Shown: one piece after another, positions 1,877 through 60,000 of the stretch
Layout: each line of letters begins with the position of its first letter
Numbering within the stretch: position 1 is the first letter of the stretch
DNA from: Lama guanicoe
Taxonomy: Eukaryota
Assembly (NCBI GenBank): GCA_013239625.1
Contig: MU053216.1
Location: 436,001 to 496,000 of the forward strand
Length of the DNA: 60,000 nt
Direction: 5' to 3'
The notes under the pieces: model-generated
The model's database searches: none
The model's input: the letters and a program-made list of their open reading frames with translations, nothing else
What the model was told of the DNA's origin: nothing
Translations under genes and position numbers: made by a program

Positions 1877-2092
1877 AGCACCACCAGGCTGCTGAGGTTC
1901 TGGAAGGCGCGGTCGGGGACGTGGGCAATGCGGTTGAGGGCCAGCGTCATGGCCTGCAGGCCGGGGAGGTGGCTGAGGGCCCTGACCGGGATCTCGGTGA
2001 GCGCGTTGTCGTCCAGCCACAGGTGGCGGAGGGAGGGCAGCCCCCGGAAGCTCCCGTCCGGGACCAGGGAGATGAGGTTGGCATCGAGGCGC
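1877..2092 (-). CDS. LGR6: LGR6 exon 5 (three LRRs, 216 nt)
   Basis: ctctccaccag|G CGC CTC GAT GCC AAC...GTG GTG CT|gtgagt, encoding [72 protein letters not shown]. This frame is absent from the supplied ORF track. Confidence 0.97.
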
Positions 2093-3587
2093 CTGGTGGA
2101 GAGAGGGTGGAGAGGTGAGTCCCGGCAGGTGCAGACTGAGGGCCGGCCGGCCGGCAGGACCCCATAGGGCCTTCAAGGTGCCCGGGACCAAAGGCCAGCA
2201 TGCACCCAGTGTCCCACCTACTCAAGCTCCTGTGGTGCGCCCCCACCCCACCCCACGATTCCTTTGACCCTGTCAGCCATCTGTTCCTATTGGTGACCCA
2301 AGTTTGGACCTGCAGCCCAGTGTGGACACGTCTCCCCACCCCATACTCCCCTCTGAACTGTGGCTCCCCTGCCCCGGGGAGACACCATCCTTCCAGAGCC
2401 TCGCCACTCCGGGGCCAGACAACAGAGATGTTCCCACCGTCAACAGAGGGACGGTCCTGCCCTCTGCACGGAAAAGAAAATGCCTCCCCAAAGATGCAAG
2501 CCACTCCCACCACCCAACCCCGGTGCCCCTGCTGCCCGACTTCCCAGGGACCCAGCTGTTTGATGGGCTCCTTGCTTGGCTGATGGCCACAGGTGAGGCT
2601 GCTTCTCAGAGCAGGTAGGCTGACGGGGGGTGACCCTGTCTGGGCACAACCAGAGGGTCCAAGGTGGCGGGAGTACTTCTGATGCGAGTTCTAGAGGATC
2701 TTGGCAGCCCAGCAAGACAGGAGACAGCCCACCCTGGCTTCTTACAGGTAAGTCCAGGCAGTGACGCCCTTTCCCACTACGCCTCTTGGTCAGGGACCTG
2801 GGCTGAGCCACCCCCTTGCGGCTGGTCCCACGGGACGGGACGAGCTGGCCTGTGACCCTGGGTCTGCTCCTGCACTTTGCTGTCTTGAGGGGGCTTTGTG
2901 CTGAGGCCTGGCTCTTCCACACGGTCGGCACATGGCACCTGTGTCGTGGAGACCTCAGCCCTCCTTTGCAAAGGCCCGAGAGCCCCATAATCCGGACCCT
3001 TAAGAAGAATCTGTGTGCCTGGGTCGGGGTGGAGGGGAGACTCCTTCCATCCCAGCAGCAGGCGCCCACCTGCAGGCGTCGCGGGAGAGCAGCCGACCAG
3101 GACAGGGCCTGACAGCTGCGACGAGGAGAGGCCTCCACCCACATAAACCCAACCCAAAGGCCACTATCCCTTCAGCAAGGGCCGGTGCCTCCAGTCCCCA
3201 GCCTCCAACGGCCGCCAGACCCTCATGGCTGATGTGGCGGGGGTCGCCTGGGGACCACAGGTGGAAACACTGTGGACGGTCTGTTTCCGCAGTCGGGCGG
3301 GGCCTGGAATCTGTTTCCACGAGGCCCTGATGTTCTGCGCACAGACAGGGTGAAAAGTGCCGGATGAGCGTCAGGTGCGCAGGAGACGGAGCCCTGCCCT
3401 TCCCCACGGAGCTCCAACTCAGTGGGAGGGTCGGACTGATAGTCACAGAGCAGGGTGACCACAGGGGAGGCTGCAGGAGAAAGTGATGCCACATGGGGGC
3501 CTGGTGGCCCCGGGGGGTGGGTGGCAGGGCAGGGTGGGGGGTAGATCTCAGCAGAGGGAGTACACGGCAATTGCGGGGGATGAAAGC

Positions 3588-4329
3588 GGCCAACGGGGCT
3601 TCGGGAAGGGGAGGGGAGGGGAGCACGGGGGAGAAGGGCAGGCGCAGCCGGTGCGCCAGGGCCTGCGAGCAATGCTGTCAGGGAAACACGGAGCCACGAG
3701 GGTTTCCAGCAAAGGACGCGGACACGCAGCAGGATTCCTGGTGCTGGAGAGGGGCCATGCTGGAGGCCGAAGACCAGCGAAGAGACAGGCGCCTGCACAA
3801 CCATCGCGTCGGAAAGGTGCGGCCACATCCCGTCCCCCAAAGGGCCCCTGCTGGGGGTGCTCCCGTTGCTCTGGCCTGGGCGGTTGTAGGGCTGGCCTGC
3901 CAGGCTCCAGCGTCAGCAGTTCTGGGAGTCCTTTTAGCAGCGCTTGAAGGACACCAGCAGCCAACGGGACTTCGGGAAGGGGAGGGGAGGGGAGCACGGG
4001 GGAGAAGGGCAGGCGCAGCCGGTGCGCCAGGGCCTGCGAGCAATGCTGTCAGGGAAACACGGAGCCACGAGGGTTTCCAGCAAAGGACGCGGACACGCAG
4101 CAGGATTCCTGGTGCTGGAGAGGGGCCATGCTGGAGGCCGAAGACCAGCGAAGAGACAGGCGCCTGCACAACCATCGCGTCGGAAAGGTGCGGCCACATC
4201 CCGTCCCCCAAAGGGCCCCTGCTGGGGGTGCTCCCGTTGCTCTGGCCTGGGCGGTTGTAGGGCTGGCCTGCCAGGCTCCAGCGTCAGCAGTTCTGGGAGT
4301 CCTTTTAGCAGCGCTTGAAGGACACCAGC
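3588..4329. repeat. Direct tandem duplication, 2 x 371 bp
   Basis: 3588-3958 matches 3959-4329 with two mismatches (3588/3959 and 3598/3969). The duplicated ORFs in the track are offset by exactly 371. Confidence 0.97.
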
Positions 4330-30219: not shown

Positions 30220-30291
30220 AGAGACTGCAGGCTCGGCAGCTCCCACAGTGCCTCCGCAGGGACGCCTCCCAGCCGGTTGTTCTGCAGCATC
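30220..30291 (-). CDS. LGR6: LGR6 exon 4 (one LRR, 72 nt)
   Basis: ttccttccag|G ATG CTG CAG AAC AAC CGG...CAG TCT CT|gtgagt, encoding [24 protein letters not shown]. Confidence 0.97.
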
Positions 30292-33737: not shown

Positions 33738-33809
33738 AGGGTTTTCAGGCTGTAGAGACCGGCGAACGCTTGTCCCGGGATGTGTGAGAGGTGGTTCCCA
33801 GAGAGACGC
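33738..33809 (-). CDS. LGR6: LGR6 exon 3 (one LRR, 72 nt)
   Basis: gatttgcag|G CGT CTC TCT GGG AAC CAC...AAA ACC CT|gtaagt, encoding [24 protein letters not shown]. Confidence 0.97.
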
Positions 33810-36000: not shown

Positions 36001-36072
36001 AGTTCCTCCAGGAAGCGCAGGTGGTGGAAGAGGCCGGGCTGCAGCTCCGTGAGGTTGTTCATGCTCAGGTCT
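36001..36072 (-). CDS. LGR6: LGR6 exon 2 (one LRR, 72 nt)
   Basis: tcctccctgcag|A GAC CTG AGC ATG AAC AAC...GAG GAA CT|gtgagt, encoding [24 protein letters not shown]. Phase 2-2. Confidence 0.97.
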
Positions 36073-54350: not shown

Positions 54351-57300
54351 ACGATGACGCCAGCCCTGCTCCGCTATGGCCAATGCCTGTGCCTGTGCCC
54401 CCCGCTCCCCCCAGCTCCCTGCCTCCGTCTCATCACCCCTCAAGCAGGGGTGAGGAGGATGCGAACCACTCAGAATCCACGCACACTCCCACGCGACCTT
54501 TCGTCAAGTCCACTGGTTGTCACAGGCAGTCTTAAGAGGACTGAAGTCCCAAGGGGGCAGGAAGCTGGCGGGCGGGTGTTGCCTGGGGTGGGGCCCCTCC
54601 CTCAGTGCCAGTGCAGAGGGGATGGAATTGGGTGCTGAGGGGAAAGGTCAAGTGCATGTGCCCAGGTCTTTCACAGCAGCCGCCAAGACAGCTTTTCCCC
54701 TGCCAGTCACTGCCCGGCACAGCTCAACTCTGGGGGCAAAAGGAGGGACTCAAGGTACCAGAGATTCTCCAAGCCAGGACAACTCAGTGTCGCCAACATC
54801 TGTACGTGCTGGTCTCCTCACTGGGTGGACGTGGGTCAGGACAGGGAAGGGGAACCCCACCTTCTCACGCTGTCAGGCCGGAACACCCCAGAGCAGGGGC
54901 TGCAGCACCCCCAGGTCAGTTCCCAGGAGGATGCCCAAACCCCCGTGAGCCCCGTGAGCCTCACTGAGACCACGGGTCAGAGGTACTAACAACGAGAGAA
55001 CTTGCAGGGCGGAGCGTTTGAAGCCTGGCCTTCCCACCTTATCAGCAGGGCAGCAGCACTCAAGGCTGTCATCATCTTGCCCTTGGGGGTAAAGCAGAGA
55101 TGGCAGTGGTACAGAGAAGGCTTTCTGGCCTTCCCTGGAGCCCAGATGGACAAGGCAGAGCTGTGTGCACAGAGAAGGGGAGTGGGTATAAGGGAGGGGC
55201 AGCGATGTGAAGTGTGCTGGGAGACCTGCAGAGTCACCTGGAGCCCGCAGGTCCTTGGGGCCTCCTATGGTTCAGTCTGCGGCTGCTTCCAAACGTCCCC
55301 AAGTGCCCCCTCTGACCGGCCGCTCCCTGAACATCGAGTGCTTCCGTCTCACCTTTCACTTCCCCACCCTGTGTCGGGGAGACCTGCATGTTCACCCCAC
55401 CCCCAATATCCGCCAGCCAGCTGGACCCCAGAGCCCCAGGCCAGCCAAGCACTGGCGAGCCCAACACACCCCTCCTCTCCTCCCACCAGCAGCGGCTCCC
55501 TTGGGTCCTCCACTCACCCCAGGCTCAACTCCCTCGTGTTAAGGTTCGGCTTCCTGCCGCCTCCACCAGACACCCACGGGAGGCAGGACAGCGATGGCCA
55601 CCTGTCACATGGCAGGCATGGTGCTGGGTACTTGATCCGACACATCGCCCCCTGGATCCCTGCCACCACTTCTCCCCAAGCACAGATGATGGCTTAGGGG
55701 AATTTGGTGGCGCAGTAGGGGCAGAACTAGGAAAACCCTGGAGTCTGAGCGGCCCAGACAGAGAGGCCCTGCTGGTCAGGGCCGCAGGTGCAAGTGTAAG
55801 CTGTCCTCAGCAAGTGCTGGGCCTCCTGGGCTGCAGCTAGACCTGCGCTCCCTTTGCTGAGGAGGGAGGGGAGACCCTCACACCGACCCACCCTGAGTTG
55901 GCTGCCTGGGCAGCTCTCCAGAAAGGCCAAGGAATAAGCCCCCTGCCCCCAGCAGAGACCCTTCAGTCACCATCCAGACAAGACCCCTGCCTCCTGCCCT
56001 CCCTCCACGATTCCAGAGTCTGCTGCTAAGTCCCACGTTGCGTGGGACCCTGCCTTCCCTCCCCCCAACTCTGGGAAGCACAGTCTGAGTCTCGGGAGAG
56101 AGGAGCTTTCTCAGCCCCCATGGAGACATGGGACTGGCTCAGAAAATCCCAAATGCTGACTTGCCAGCTCCAGGGGAACAGTGACAGGACAGTGGGGGAA
56201 ACTTCCTGTGGTCGTGGATGGTGGGACGCTGGAATTGTAACGGCGGCACTGTCTTCTCCTTCCCCAAGTTCTTCCACAGAAAGGGTGTGTCTGGGGGTTG
56301 GACCAATCAGCCTCAGGAAGGCCCTGTCTCCCTGCCCCTCAGCCTGGAAAAGGAACCTTTCTTCTGCTCCCCCAGGGAAAGGCCCCACAGAAGTCACTTC
56401 CAAACCCTTTTTAGCCACAGAATCCATAAGGAAGCGATGTCCTATACCACCCACATGTAATCGGCTCAGGGATCCGCCCTGTGAGGAGCAGGTGCGGGGC
56501 CAGGGCCACCCTCCCTTGCCAGCAGTGGGGCCCCTCAAGGCCCCAGGGCCTTCACCCCGGGAGAGGGAAGGATGCAGTTTGCTCTCCTGGAATCTCTTCA
56601 CTATCTCCTCTCCCCTGGCCCCCAGCCCATGTCTCTGGGAGTGGAGGGGGACATCCCATAGGGACAGAGAGATGGGGAGGGGAGCCTCCACACCCTGCCA
56701 GCACTGAATGCCCTGGTCCCATTTAATTCAACAAGTACTTACCTGACTCTGACAACTAGACCGGCTCCCACCTGCTTTCTCAGAGCCCCCAAGTGCTGCA
56801 ACCCAAAGTGATACAGCACCAGGACCCCATCCCTTGGACAGAGGGCCCCAGACTTTCCCACTTACTCTCCTCCTCTGAGTGAAGGTGATGGGGCCTGGGC
56901 AGGGCTGAGCCAGGAAGGGTTTCCTCTCCTTAGAGCCGGGGCAGGTGGTCTGAAACTGCCCTCACCCACTCCTCCTGACCAGGTGGTGAGTGGTCAGAGC
57001 CCATGCCTCAGGCCCTGAGGCGGAGCCCCTCTGAGCCACCCTCAGGACAGCACCCCCAGCAGGGTCCCCTTCCCGAGCCGTCTCACCCCAGCTCAGACTC
57101 TAAACACAGCCTGCCCACAAATCAGTGTCTCCAACATGGCCTCTTGGGATGTGACTTCAGAGAGGACCCTGGGGAGCCAGGAGGCCTCAGTGAAGAGAGG
57201 TGTTGCAGGCAGGGGCCCTCTTGGAGGAGACCAGAGTGGGGAAAGACCCTCTCCCGGCTTCTGGGACCTCCCACCAAGGCCACCCAGCCTTGGTGTGACA

Positions 57301-57559
57301 GCTCTGCTCTTCTGGGCAAACAACCTTTCCACCCCACCGGGCCCCCTCCCTTCTCCACCACCAAGTCAGCCAGCGTTGCCAGCTATGTCCAGGGCACTGC
57401 TCTGCGGGAGAAGAAAGCAGCAAGAGGAGAAGGGGGCGGGCCTGCGCCCCTCCAGCCCAGGTACAGAGGCCACCTCTCACCAAGCCTGGGCTCCCCGGGC
57501 GAACCCCGAGACGGGGCCAACTGGGAAACCACGCCAGGCAAGCTCAGGCGCACTCCTGG

Positions 57560-58010
57560 TCGATCCTCTGTCTCAGGCTTTCCTCCCCGCCCCGGGCCCG
57601 CGGGCCCGCATGCCCCCACCGCGCAGGTGCCCGGACCGCGGCGGGCGGCGGGGGGAGAAAGGCGCGGTACTCACAGGTAAGCCGTCCTGGGGTCCAGGTC
57701 GCGCGGCACGGCCGAGAGCCCGCGCTCCGAGCAGTCGGCCGACAGCGAGATGCCGCCCCGCTGGCAGCGGCAGGGGGCCGGGCAGGCGGGCCGCGGGCCG
57801 GGCTGGGGCGCGCCGCGGGCGGGCGGGCAGGCGCACAGCGCGGCGCAGAGCCACAGACACGGGCTCTGCTGGGCGGCGGCGTGCGCGGCGCAGTCAGGCT
57901 GGCGCAGGCATCGCCGAGCGATCTTCGCTCCTGGTTTCACGGGTTGGGCTTGGCAAGGGAGGGAGACGCGGCGGAGGAGGAGCCAAGGCAACTTTCTTGC
58001 CCGTCCGCTC
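57560..58010. promoter_or_regulatory. CpG island over LGR6 exon 1 and proximal promoter
   Basis: Very dense CpG and GC-box-like (GGGCGG) content around exon 1, well above the flanks. Boundaries are by eye. Confidence 0.85.
57675..57911 (-). CDS. LGR6: LGR6 exon 1: signal-peptide-like segment and Cys-rich LRR N-terminal cap (start codon problematic)
   Basis: Reads [61 protein letters not shown] and ends TAC CT|GTGAGT (donor GT at 57674-57673). The nearest ATG (57911-57909) is out of frame with this sequence; see findings. Confidence 0.85.
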
Positions 58011-60000
58011 CCTTGCCTCCTTTCTTCCAGCTGGCGGGGGCTTCATCCAGGAAAGGAAAAAAGCAAAGAACCTGGGGAGGGACCTGCCGCGGTTTGGAAA
58101 CGTCCCCCGAAGCCCGGGCTGTGGGTCAGGACCCCGTGCCTGCAGGGACTGCCTCGGGGTCACAGGGGACTCAGGAGCCCTGCGGCAGCCCTGAAGACTT
58201 TCCACAGCTCCCAGGCCCGCCGCCGCCTTTCCTACGGGAGGAAACTGGGACCCAGGAGGGAAGTGCTTTGTTCAAGGTCACCGCTGGTGGGAATTTGGGG
58301 TCCCCCTCGGCCCCTCCGTGGGGAGGGGTGGGGGGACAAGAGGTTGTCCTGAAGGGTGAGCTCTGAGGGGCCTCTTGCAGGCTGGGTGAGGGGGCCTTCT
58401 CGCCGAGCCCCTGCCCGCCACTGCAGAAGGGTGCGATGTCTACCGCAGGGTGTCCTTGCATGCAGCCCGGGTCAGGTGTGAGCCCGGGAGCACTTGACCC
58501 TGCAATCCGCGGAGCCAGGCAACAGCTGGGGGACCCGCCCACCTGGCCGTGTGGTCAGGCTGAGAGTCGGCGGTGGGCGCCACCTGGAGGCCAGTCCTGC
58601 AGCCACAGCTCAACCAGCCCCTGGCCAGACAGGCCAGCCCCGAGGCCTGAGGGGCAAGGATGGTGGCTGGAGCAGGGGCCAGCCCCGTCTCTCCTGAGAC
58701 TAGTCTTGGTGGCTGTGCCTCCTTCCCGGAGCCTTTTCTTTCTCTGGTCTCTAGCGCTGAGCCAAGCTCAGTGTAGAGCCAGAGCCACCGTGTTCCCCAC
58801 TCCTGCCACCTCCCCAGGTCCATCCCAGGTGGACATCAGCAGCCTGGAGGCCTCGGGACAGCCAACACTCCCTCCACCCTGGACTGCCAAGCCCCAAGGC
58901 CCCCATACATCCCTCCCATTGTCTTCTCTCACCTCCCAGGCCCCAGGGGCTGACCAGCTGGGCCAGGTAGCCCATGGACCCTGGCCCTGGGTCTTGGATG
59001 GGTGCGGCTCTGATGGAGACAAGCCTCCAGGGAGGCCTGGGTGGTCGAGCATGGAGGCCCTGGGAGACCACAGGTGGGCTGCCTGCCCCCCACCCCTCGC
59101 TCTGGCCCCTGCTAGACTGCAGCTCCCAGTAGTCCCCTCAGCAGTGGGGGGGTCAGGGGCCTTGCCTGCTGGAGGGTCACTGTGGGCCAACCCTGGGCTC
59201 CTGACAAACGTGGGGTCTGAGGAGGAGGGGCCCTCATCCTGGGGAGGCTCCTGACTGAGCGGGAAGCCCGGCCTCCGGTCCGCTTCCACACCAGGCCTGA
59301 GAAGGGCCCTCCTTGACCTCTGACCCCTTGTCCTCTCAGGGCCTCCCGCTCTGCTTTGTCCAGGCTCTGCGTCCCCCTCCCTGGGCCCTCCACCAGGAAC
59401 AACTGGGGACCAGCATTGGGCACCAGCTGTCCAGGGCCACGCAGTCCGATCAGGGGACAGACGGGCCCTGGTGAGGCCACCAGCGATCGCGTCACCACCG
59501 AACACACTGCAGGCCTGCAGCTTGGGACAGGCTCACCCTAACCCTAACCCTCCTTTCTGTTCCTCCTCCTGGTTTTTTCCTCCCCCAAACTCCCTTGCTG
59601 CTACTCTCCTGGCTCCTGTGGGGGAGGGGAGGGGGCACAGAGAGCCTGGCATCTCTGACCCGAGGAGCAGCAGAGCCCCAGCACCTGCCCCTGCGGGGCT
59701 GCAGCAGGTGGAAGGTGGGCGGGCGGGAGGAAGAGGGCACGGACAAGTCCGTCCTGAGGCACACGGGGCGGGGTGGCCCTGATAGCCAGGGCTCTGAAGC
59801 CAGGCTCCCAGGACACTAGGGACTAAATGTGAGGAAGCTAGGAAACTAGAGGGCAGGGTCTGGGGACTGCCCCGGGGAGGGCCACCTGCTAGGCCCATCC
59901 CTGCTTCTGTTTCCCCCAGGCCCTTGCACTGGGCTGTTTCTTTCCTCCTGGAGAGTGGATGGACAGAATGCACTCGGCCTCAGGCTTGACCACATCCTTT

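What the first reader, a model, noticed from the sequence alone, without database searches (positions are those of the whole stretch)
57850..57911. LGR6 exon 1 has no in-frame ATG: the expected start opens only MPAPA-stop
Seen: the frame encoding LWLCAALC...TAYL is open from an in-frame TGA at 58045-58043 to the donor, but contains no ATG. The track's 'M' at 57991 is TTG. The nearest ATG (57911, context GGCG-ATG-C) reads ATG CCT GCG CCA GCC TGA CTG CGC, i.e. M-P-A-P-A-*-L-R, and lies 55 nt upstream of the LWL codons, which is out of frame. From memory, human LGR6 starts MPSPPGLRALWLC, with 27 nt from ATG to L. Inference: (a) this ATG is the ortholog, with a Gly-to-TGA change plus about 28 extra nt, disabling the signal-peptide isoform; (b) a 1-nt error in a very GC-rich region (deleting one base between 57908 and 57896 restores [22 protein letters not shown]); or (c) non-AUG initiation at in-frame CTG 57907 or TTG 57991. 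Exons 2-5 and all splice sites are intact, which argues against old pseudogenisation. LGR6 marks skin, nail and mammary progenitors, so a real lineage-specific change would matter.
Basis: partly seen in the sequence, partly recalled or inferred. Interest (0 to 1): 0.7.

Follow-up and report, generated by a model that had tools for sequence, protein, structure and literature searches.

The report
Assembly gap hides LGR6 start codon
This camelid LGR6 gene looks as if it has no start codon, most likely because about 86 bases that should hold the start are missing from this draft assembly, so it is probably an artefact.

Summary
On the minus strand, the frame encoding LWLCAALC...TAYL (57856-57675) is open back to a TGA at 58045-58043 and contains no ATG. 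The ATG at 57911 reads MPAPA-TGA and lies 55 nt upstream, out of frame.

The biological reading is not supported. All 20 exon-1-bearing LGR6 sequences I read have a Met exactly 9 residues before LWLC. These include RefSeq alpaca and Camelus models that start MPSPAGLRALWLC.

An independent short-read contig from a closely related organism (run X7) matches the window on both sides of 57856/57857. It carries 85 unaligned letters there, a net 86 extra bases, exactly where the nine missing codons belong. Contigs from two other runs end 11 and 35 nt before that point. A window-private dinucleotide at 57822-57823 (Pro instead of Cys) lies 33 nt away. Local GC is 82-84%.

The most likely explanation (about 0.7) is a bad contig join or low-quality patch in a 55,231-piece draft assembly. 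I did not see the 86 letters, so their holding the ATG is inferred. A real deletion in this animal (about 0.2) is not excluded. ATG 57911 is real sequence and sits in the 5' leader.

The parts
57675..57856 (-). The part of LGR6 exon 1 present in the assembly. It encodes [60 protein letters not shown] plus the first two bases of the next Leu codon. The donor GT is at 57674-57673.
   Evidence: tblastn of alpaca protein P0052 residues 10-70 gives 60 of 61 identical. Best database hits are Camelus ferus LGR6 at 95%.
57856..57857 (.). Breakpoint. An independent contig carries 85 unaligned letters here (net 86 extra bases) that the window lacks. This is the inferred position of the missing ATG and codons 1-9.
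   Evidence: table 8: X7 record 6 aligns 57200-57856 to record 2140-2796 and 57856-58600 to record 2882-3626. Orthologous proteins need 27 nt (MPSPAGLRA) directly 5' of the L codon at 57856.
57822..57823 (-). Dinucleotide private to the window. It makes codon CCC (Pro) where other data give TGC (Cys), so CPPARG replaces CPCARG.
   Evidence: table 3: X1 and X7 both read G>C at 57822 and G>A at 57823. Alpaca and Camelus proteins have Cys here.
57894..57911 (-). Upstream ATG mini-frame ATG CCT GCG CCA GCC TGA (MPAPA-stop) in the 5' leader. It resembles the true start MPSPAG.
   Evidence: The letters are identical in the X7 contig, with no differences listed between 57857 and 58214. The 6-of-9 residue match to MPSPAGLRA is reached at only 4 of 119,948 positions in the window, and this is the only one starting with M.
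58043..58045 (-). TGA that closes the LWLC frame upstream. It overlaps the only other minus-strand ATG nearby (58046-58044).
36001..36072 (-). LGR6 exon 2 ([24 protein letters not shown])
   Evidence: 24 of 24 residues identical to alpaca P0052. AG acceptor and GT donor are present.
33738..33809 (-). LGR6 exon 3 ([24 protein letters not shown])
30220..30291 (-). LGR6 exon 4 ([24 protein letters not shown])
1888..2092 (-). LGR6 exon 5 ([15 protein letters not shown]...). Its 3' end was not determined here.

Best explanation
The window holds the 5' end of an ordinary LGR6 gene from a South American camelid or a very close relative. About 86 bases are missing from the draft assembly between 57857 and 56 on the minus strand. 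They lie directly in front of the Leu codon of LWLC. By inference they hold the real ATG, the first nine codons (MPSPAGLRA) and about 59 nt of leader. The loss most likely arose when two short-read contigs that both ended in this 82-84% GC stretch were joined without a gap, or when a low-coverage patch was filled wrongly. A private two-base miscall 33 nt away fits the same cause. Shown: the anomaly itself, the net 86-base difference at exactly this point in an independent contig, the private dinucleotide, the ending of other contigs here, and the canonical start in alpaca and Camelus proteins. Inferred: that the 86 bases contain the ATG, and that they are present in the animal that was assembled.
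For: (1) All 20 exon-1-bearing LGR6 sequences I read have Met exactly 9 residues before (L/F)W(L/F)C. These are 10 of 10, 5 of the 10 fetched (the other 5 lack exon 1 altogether) and 5 of 5. Alpaca XP_072804949.1 and XP_072804950.1, and the Camelus models, start MPSPAGLRALWLC. (2): X7 contig record 6 (7,536 nt, mean word depth 23.6) matches the window on both sides of 57856/57857, with 85 unaligned letters between and a net 86 extra. It differs otherwise at only 7 positions in 1,401. (3): the X1 contig stops at 57845 and the X2 contig at 57821. Short-read contigs from other samples therefore also end at this spot. (4): the window's bases at 57822-57823 are contradicted by both contigs that cover them (X1, X7) and by the alpaca and Camelus proteins. 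(5) GC is 0.835 for 57700-57899 and 0.82 for 57800-57920. The assembly has 55,231 pieces. (6) None of the 14 DNA runs holds more than 0.89 of the sampled words. For X7 the losses expected from its listed differences plus the junction, 124 of 871 words or 0.858, match the observed 0.86. (7) An older alpaca model, XP_015102527.1, also lacks exon 1 and starts in intron-1 reading frames. Exon 1 has therefore been a problem for annotation of a camelid assembly before.
Against: I never saw the 86 letters. Read laying printed none and is capped at one call, so their content is inferred. X7 carries a different organism label from the best holder. No run known to come from the assembled animal covers the junction, and the X1 and X2 contigs stop short of it, so a real deletion in this animal is not excluded. 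The two sides share only 1 nt at the junction, so this is not a classic collapse of an exact repeat. Read as it stands, the in-frame leader ([15 protein letters not shown]) aligns loosely with other mammals' leader plus start (PAAEMPSPAGLRA-LWLC). That could instead be read as real decay, with ATG changed to CAG and a 12-15 nt loss.
Confidence: 0.7

Rival explanations
1. The 86-bp deletion, with or without the neighbouring dinucleotide change, is a real allele of the sequenced animal or its species. It removes the AUG and the first nine codons of the signal-peptide isoform of LGR6. Expression would then depend on non-AUG initiation or on alternative first exons.
For: The window has no N and reads through cleanly. 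The own genome holds no stray contig with the missing piece: only the window's own site matches exon 1, covering residues 9-70. No run demonstrably from the same animal contradicts the junction. Alpaca models exist that start in exon 2 (P0050, [10 protein letters not shown]), so transcripts without exon 1 are predicted in this group.
Against: Alpaca and all Camelus models keep the canonical start. A second window-private difference 33 nt away, extreme GC and contigs ending here in other samples all point to poor sequence rather than mutation. No DNA run holds more than 0.89 of the words.
Confidence: 0.2
2. One reading: ATG 57911 is the orthologous start codon, disabled in this lineage by a Gly-to-TGA change and about 28 inserted bases.
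For: MPAPA*LRR matches MPSPAGLRA at 6 of 9 positions. Only 4 of 119,948 positions in the window reach that, and this is the only one beginning with M. The letters are confirmed by the X7 contig.
Against: The same X7 contig carries these letters and also 86 further bases before LWLC. The alpaca protein starts MPSPAGLRA directly before LWLC. The stretch therefore coexists with a working start and is leader sequence, perhaps a decayed local duplicate.
Confidence: 0.04
3. One reading: a single-base error puts ATG 57911 in frame, or translation starts at in-frame CTG 57907 or TTG 57991.
For: The frame is open from 58042, and CTG 57907 and TTG 57991 are in frame.
Against: The X7 contig shows no 1-nt indel anywhere in 57857-58214 (tables 4 and 8). 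A 1-nt shift would give a leader peptide unlike any orthologue's. All 20 orthologous sequences read use AUG.
Confidence: 0.04

Closest known systems
Vicugna pacos LGR6 isoform X1, XP_072804949.1 (P0052)
   Same: 60 of 61 residues of the exon 1 part present here, including the alpaca-type GGISLSADC and DPRTAYL. Exon 2 is identical at 24 of 24 residues, and exons 3-5 are colinear and identical over their exonic parts.
   Different: It begins MPSPAGLRA before LWLC, whereas the window has no such codons. It has Cys where the window has Pro (57823-57821).
Camelus ferus LGR6, XP_032322804.1 (P0001), and other Camelus models (P0049, P0051)
   Same: The same gene, 95% identical over the exon 1 part, with the same MPSPAGLRALWLC start as alpaca.
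   Different: Three residue differences in exon 1 (C/P, T/S, L/R), so the window is closer to alpaca than to Camelus.
Older alpaca model XP_015102527.1 (P0053)
   Same: A camelid LGR6 model without a usable exon 1. It is identical from exon 2 onward.
   Different: Its N-terminus comes from reading frames at 46142-45981 and 45024-44821 inside intron 1. The second of these carries an in-frame stop in this window.
Missing or damaged GC-rich first exons in short-read vertebrate assemblies (general knowledge, recalled; no paper read here)
   Same: An extremely GC-rich 5' exon, contigs ending at the spot, and a locally wrong consensus.
   Different: Here the loss is hidden by a gapless join rather than marked by Ns.

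Membership tests
LGR6 orthologue (leucine-rich repeat-containing G-protein coupled receptor 6) | Exon 1 encodes the Cys-rich LRR N-terminal cap (ACPAPC.C ... LSADCS) with high identity to named LGR6 proteins | tested here: met
   46 proteins scored E <= 0.001 among 119 candidates. All but one bear an LGR6 name and the remaining one has none. The best are Camelus ferus at 95%. Identity to alpaca is 60 of 61.
LGR6 orthologue (leucine-rich repeat-containing G-protein coupled receptor 6) | Downstream 72-nt LRR exons are colinear and spliced in phase | tested here: met
   Exons 2-5 were found in order on the minus strand. Exons 1-4 have canonical AG/GT sites and exon 5 has its AG acceptor.
LGR6 orthologue (leucine-rich repeat-containing G-protein coupled receptor 6) | AUG 9 codons before LWLC, giving the signal peptide | tested here: not met
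   The window has no in-frame ATG, whereas all 20 orthologous sequences read have it. I attribute the failure to missing sequence, not to the gene.
LGR6 orthologue (leucine-rich repeat-containing G-protein coupled receptor 6) | Seven-transmembrane domain in the last exon | not tested
   It lies outside the 60-kb window. Only exons 1-5 are present.
Upstream open reading frame (uORF) in a 5' leader | An AUG upstream of the main AUG, closed by a stop before it | tested here: inconclusive
   ATG 57911 to TGA 57894 is present and confirmed in the X7 contig. The main AUG was not seen, and its position is inferred.
Upstream open reading frame (uORF) in a 5' leader | Lies within the transcribed leader and is scanned by ribosomes | not testable with these tools
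   The one RNA run laid (X15) gave no real cover of 57675-58093.

The most novel reading that the evidence does not exclude
The 86-bp loss is real. This animal, or its species, carries an LGR6 allele without the AUG and first nine codons of the signal-peptide isoform. It would make the receptor only through non-AUG initiation (for example in-frame CTG 57907) or from alternative first exons. That would be a natural hypomorph of a skin, nail and mammary progenitor marker in a fibre-producing camelid.
Probability: 0.2. Interest if true: 0.45.

Novelty: not a real feature. Interest (0 to 1): 0.1.

Why it matters
If the reading is right, nothing biological follows. The value is practical. Gene models built on this assembly will mis-start or drop LGR6 exon 1, as an older alpaca model did. 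A scan for lost start codons should treat gapless joins in extremely GC-rich first exons with suspicion. If the deletion were real, it would be a natural start-loss allele of an adult stem-cell marker gene in a fibre animal and worth genotyping. The evidence here leans clearly against that.

Tried and rejected
(1) RNA evidence. Run X15 (RNA, share 0.35) gave only a spurious 35-nt GC-rich piece inside exon 1 (57785-57819, 4 mismatches, loose ends on both sides) and two pieces upstream at 58094-58302 and 58344-58512. It says nothing about the start used.

(2) X1 and X2. Their contigs stop at 57845 and 57821, and nothing from these runs was laid on 57858-58600. The tool warns that a filter leaves some records out, so these holes prove nothing.

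(3) Looking for camelid reading frames from public read assemblies that would reveal the missing letters as protein. The sense-strand search at near lengths gave 5 hits among 5 candidates, all differing from the alpaca and Camelus exon 1 peptides at many residues. The antisense 391-aa frame gave no hit among the 8,000 candidates scored.

(4) A stray contig in the own genome holding the missing N-terminus. Only the window's own site matches, over residues 9-70. The one hit reaching residue 1 (L008, E = 0.2) is a low-complexity chance match.

(5) Host DNA in metagenome contigs. An exact 27-mer gave 0 matches. The peptide-pattern scan matched 594 stretches and confirmed none.

(6) Earlier notes of this scan: nothing near, nothing in relatives, nothing on LGR6.

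(7) Literature. One search for LGR6 with alpaca, llama, camel or camelid listed 15 of 12,992 papers. Only one of the 15 held LGR6, a 2005 paper on the relaxin family (listing only, not read). I found no report of an LGR6 start-codon change in camelids.

(8) Direct repeats that might explain a collapse. I found only short or weak pairs spaced 45 nt apart (10 nt exact; 34 nt at 74%), which may be chance in such GC-rich DNA.

(9) Reading-frame homology of the leader with other mammals was ambiguous. Different parts align in different frames, so I do not use it.

Full report
**What is in the sequence**

On the minus strand, ATG 57911-57909 is followed by CCT GCG CCA GCC and TGA (57896-57894). The Leu codon of LWLC starts at 57856, which is 55 nt downstream and out of frame. 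The stop-to-stop frame 57671-58042 has 123 codons and no Met. It is preceded by TGA at 58045-58043. A scan of 57675-58300 finds only two minus-strand ATGs, at 58046 and 57911, and both are in frame +1 relative to LWLC. The exon 1 donor and the sites checked for exons 2-5 are canonical, and the encoded residues match alpaca LGR6. The window has no N.

**What gene and what organism**

The exon 1 peptide finds named LGR6 proteins: 46 with E <= 0.001 among 119 candidates, all but one bearing an LGR6 name. The best are Camelus ferus at 95%. The 90% cluster around that protein also holds Vicugna pacos and other Camelus models. Against alpaca XP_072804949.1 (P0052), the exon 1 part present here is 60 of 61 identical and shares the alpaca-specific residues. 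The window therefore comes from a South American camelid or something very close. It lies in an assembly of 2.05 Gb in 55,231 pieces.

**What orthologues do**

Every exon-1-bearing LGR6 sequence I read has a Met exactly nine residues before (L/F)W(L/F)C.
- 10 of 10 proteins fetched (camel, pig, whales, hippopotamus, dog, a chimpanzee-named cluster).
- 5 of the 10 fetched. The other five lack exon 1 altogether.
- 5 of 5 short reading frames from other mammals.

Alpaca and Camelus start MPSPAGLRALWLC. The canonical start is therefore present in both branches of the camel family, and the window's state is either derived or wrong.

**What independent reads show**

Fourteen DNA runs from four coded organisms hold 0.80-0.89 of the sampled words of 57400-58300, and none holds more. 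I laid three DNA runs and one RNA run on 57200-58600.
- **X7 contig.** Record 6 (7,536 nt) aligns 57200-57856 to its positions 2140-2796 and 57856-58600 to positions 2882-3626. It therefore has 85 unaligned letters, a net 86 extra bases, exactly at 57856/57857. That is directly 5' of the L codon, where orthologues place MPSPAGLRA. Elsewhere it differs from the window at 7 of 1,401 positions.
- **Upstream letters.** The X7 contig is identical to the window from 57857 to 58214, so the ATG 57911 to TGA 57894 letters are real DNA in that organism.
- **X1 and X2 contigs.** They are otherwise identical to the window and simply end at 57845 and 57821.
- **Private dinucleotide.** X1 and X7 both contradict the window at 57822-57823. 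They read TGC (Cys), as the alpaca and Camelus proteins do, where the window has CCC (Pro).
- **Cross-check.** The words X7 should lose from its listed differences within 57400-58300 plus the junction come to 124 of 871, giving 0.858. This matches its recorded share of 0.86.

**Interpretation**

Two window-private defects lie 33 nt apart in the most GC-rich 200 bases of the region. GC is 0.835 for 57700-57899 and 0.82 for 57800-57920. Short-read contigs from other samples end at the same spot, and the assembly is highly fragmented. The simplest account is a gapless join of two contig ends, or a bad gap fill, that dropped about 86 bases. The last 27 of those bases would be ATG plus eight codons, and the rest would be leader.

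With 86 bases restored, ATG 57911 would lie 141 nt (47 codons) upstream of LWLC. It would be in frame but closed by its own TGA. That fits the annotated alpaca protein starting at MPSPAGLRA rather than further upstream. An older alpaca model (XP_015102527.1) also lacks exon 1 and borrows reading frames from intron 1. This suggests the exon has troubled a camelid assembly before.

**What remains open**

I did not see the 86 letters, so their content is inferred. X7 carries a different organism label from the best holder. No contig from a run known to be the assembled animal crosses the junction. A real deletion, at about 0.2, therefore stays possible.

One point can be read against me. The leader as it stands ([15 protein letters not shown]) aligns loosely in frame with other mammals' PAAEMPSPAGLRA-LWLC. 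That could be taken as in-place decay. However, these are short matches rich in Ala, Pro and Arg, and other parts of the leader align in another frame.

**The ATG at 57911**

MPAPA*LRR matches MPSPAGLRA at 6 of 9 residues. Only 4 of 119,948 positions in the window reach that, and this is the only one beginning with M. It may be a decayed local duplicate of the start region sitting in the leader, and could act as a five-codon uORF. Neither point could be tested: there is no RNA cover and no sequence of the insert.

**Attempts that gave nothing**

- Searches for camelid reading frames from public read assemblies.
- A search for a stray contig in the own genome.
- Two metagenome scans.
- Earlier notes of this scan.
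- One literature search, listing only.

**Verdict**

The biological interpretation is not supported for the lineage. The most likely cause is an assembly artefact (0.7). Interest is low.

Noticed in passing
window 57894-57911 (-): The upstream mini-frame MPAPA-stop followed by LRR resembles the true N-terminus MPSPAGLRA at 6 of 9 residues. Only 4 of 119,948 positions in the window reach that. Its letters are confirmed by an independent contig. It may be a decayed duplicate of the start region in the 5' leader and a possible 5-codon uORF. With the 86 extra bases it would lie 141 nt upstream of LWLC, in frame.
   Followed up: partly
window 46142-45981 and 45024-44821 (-), inside intron 1: The N-terminal 122 residues of an older alpaca LGR6 model (XP_015102527.1) map here at 97-98% identity. 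The second block carries an in-frame stop in this window where the model has Arg. These look like spurious or alternative first exons used when exon 1 was unavailable.
   Followed up: partly
window 58094-58302 and 58344-58512: Low-depth contigs (about 3.5) from an RNA-labelled run (X15) lie upstream of exon 1. One has 2 and the other 8 differences, plus an 11-nt gap. They could be upstream or divergent promoter transcripts, a longer leader, a relative's sequence, or DNA carried over in the library.
   Followed up: no
window 57767-57893: Direct repeats all spaced 45 nt apart (a 10-nt exact pair at 57839 and 57884, and a 34-nt pair at 74% at 57767 and 57812) lie within the GC-rich exon 1. They may be a trace of a 15-codon periodicity or chance in 80% GC DNA.
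   Followed up: no
proteins P0003, P0054, P0055 (Camelus ferus LGR6 isoforms X2, X1, X5): These models carry a roughly 265-residue low-complexity insertion after LRR exon 8-9 that looks like a retained intron. A 125-aa reading frame from public read assemblies (P0057) clusters with it.
   Followed up: no
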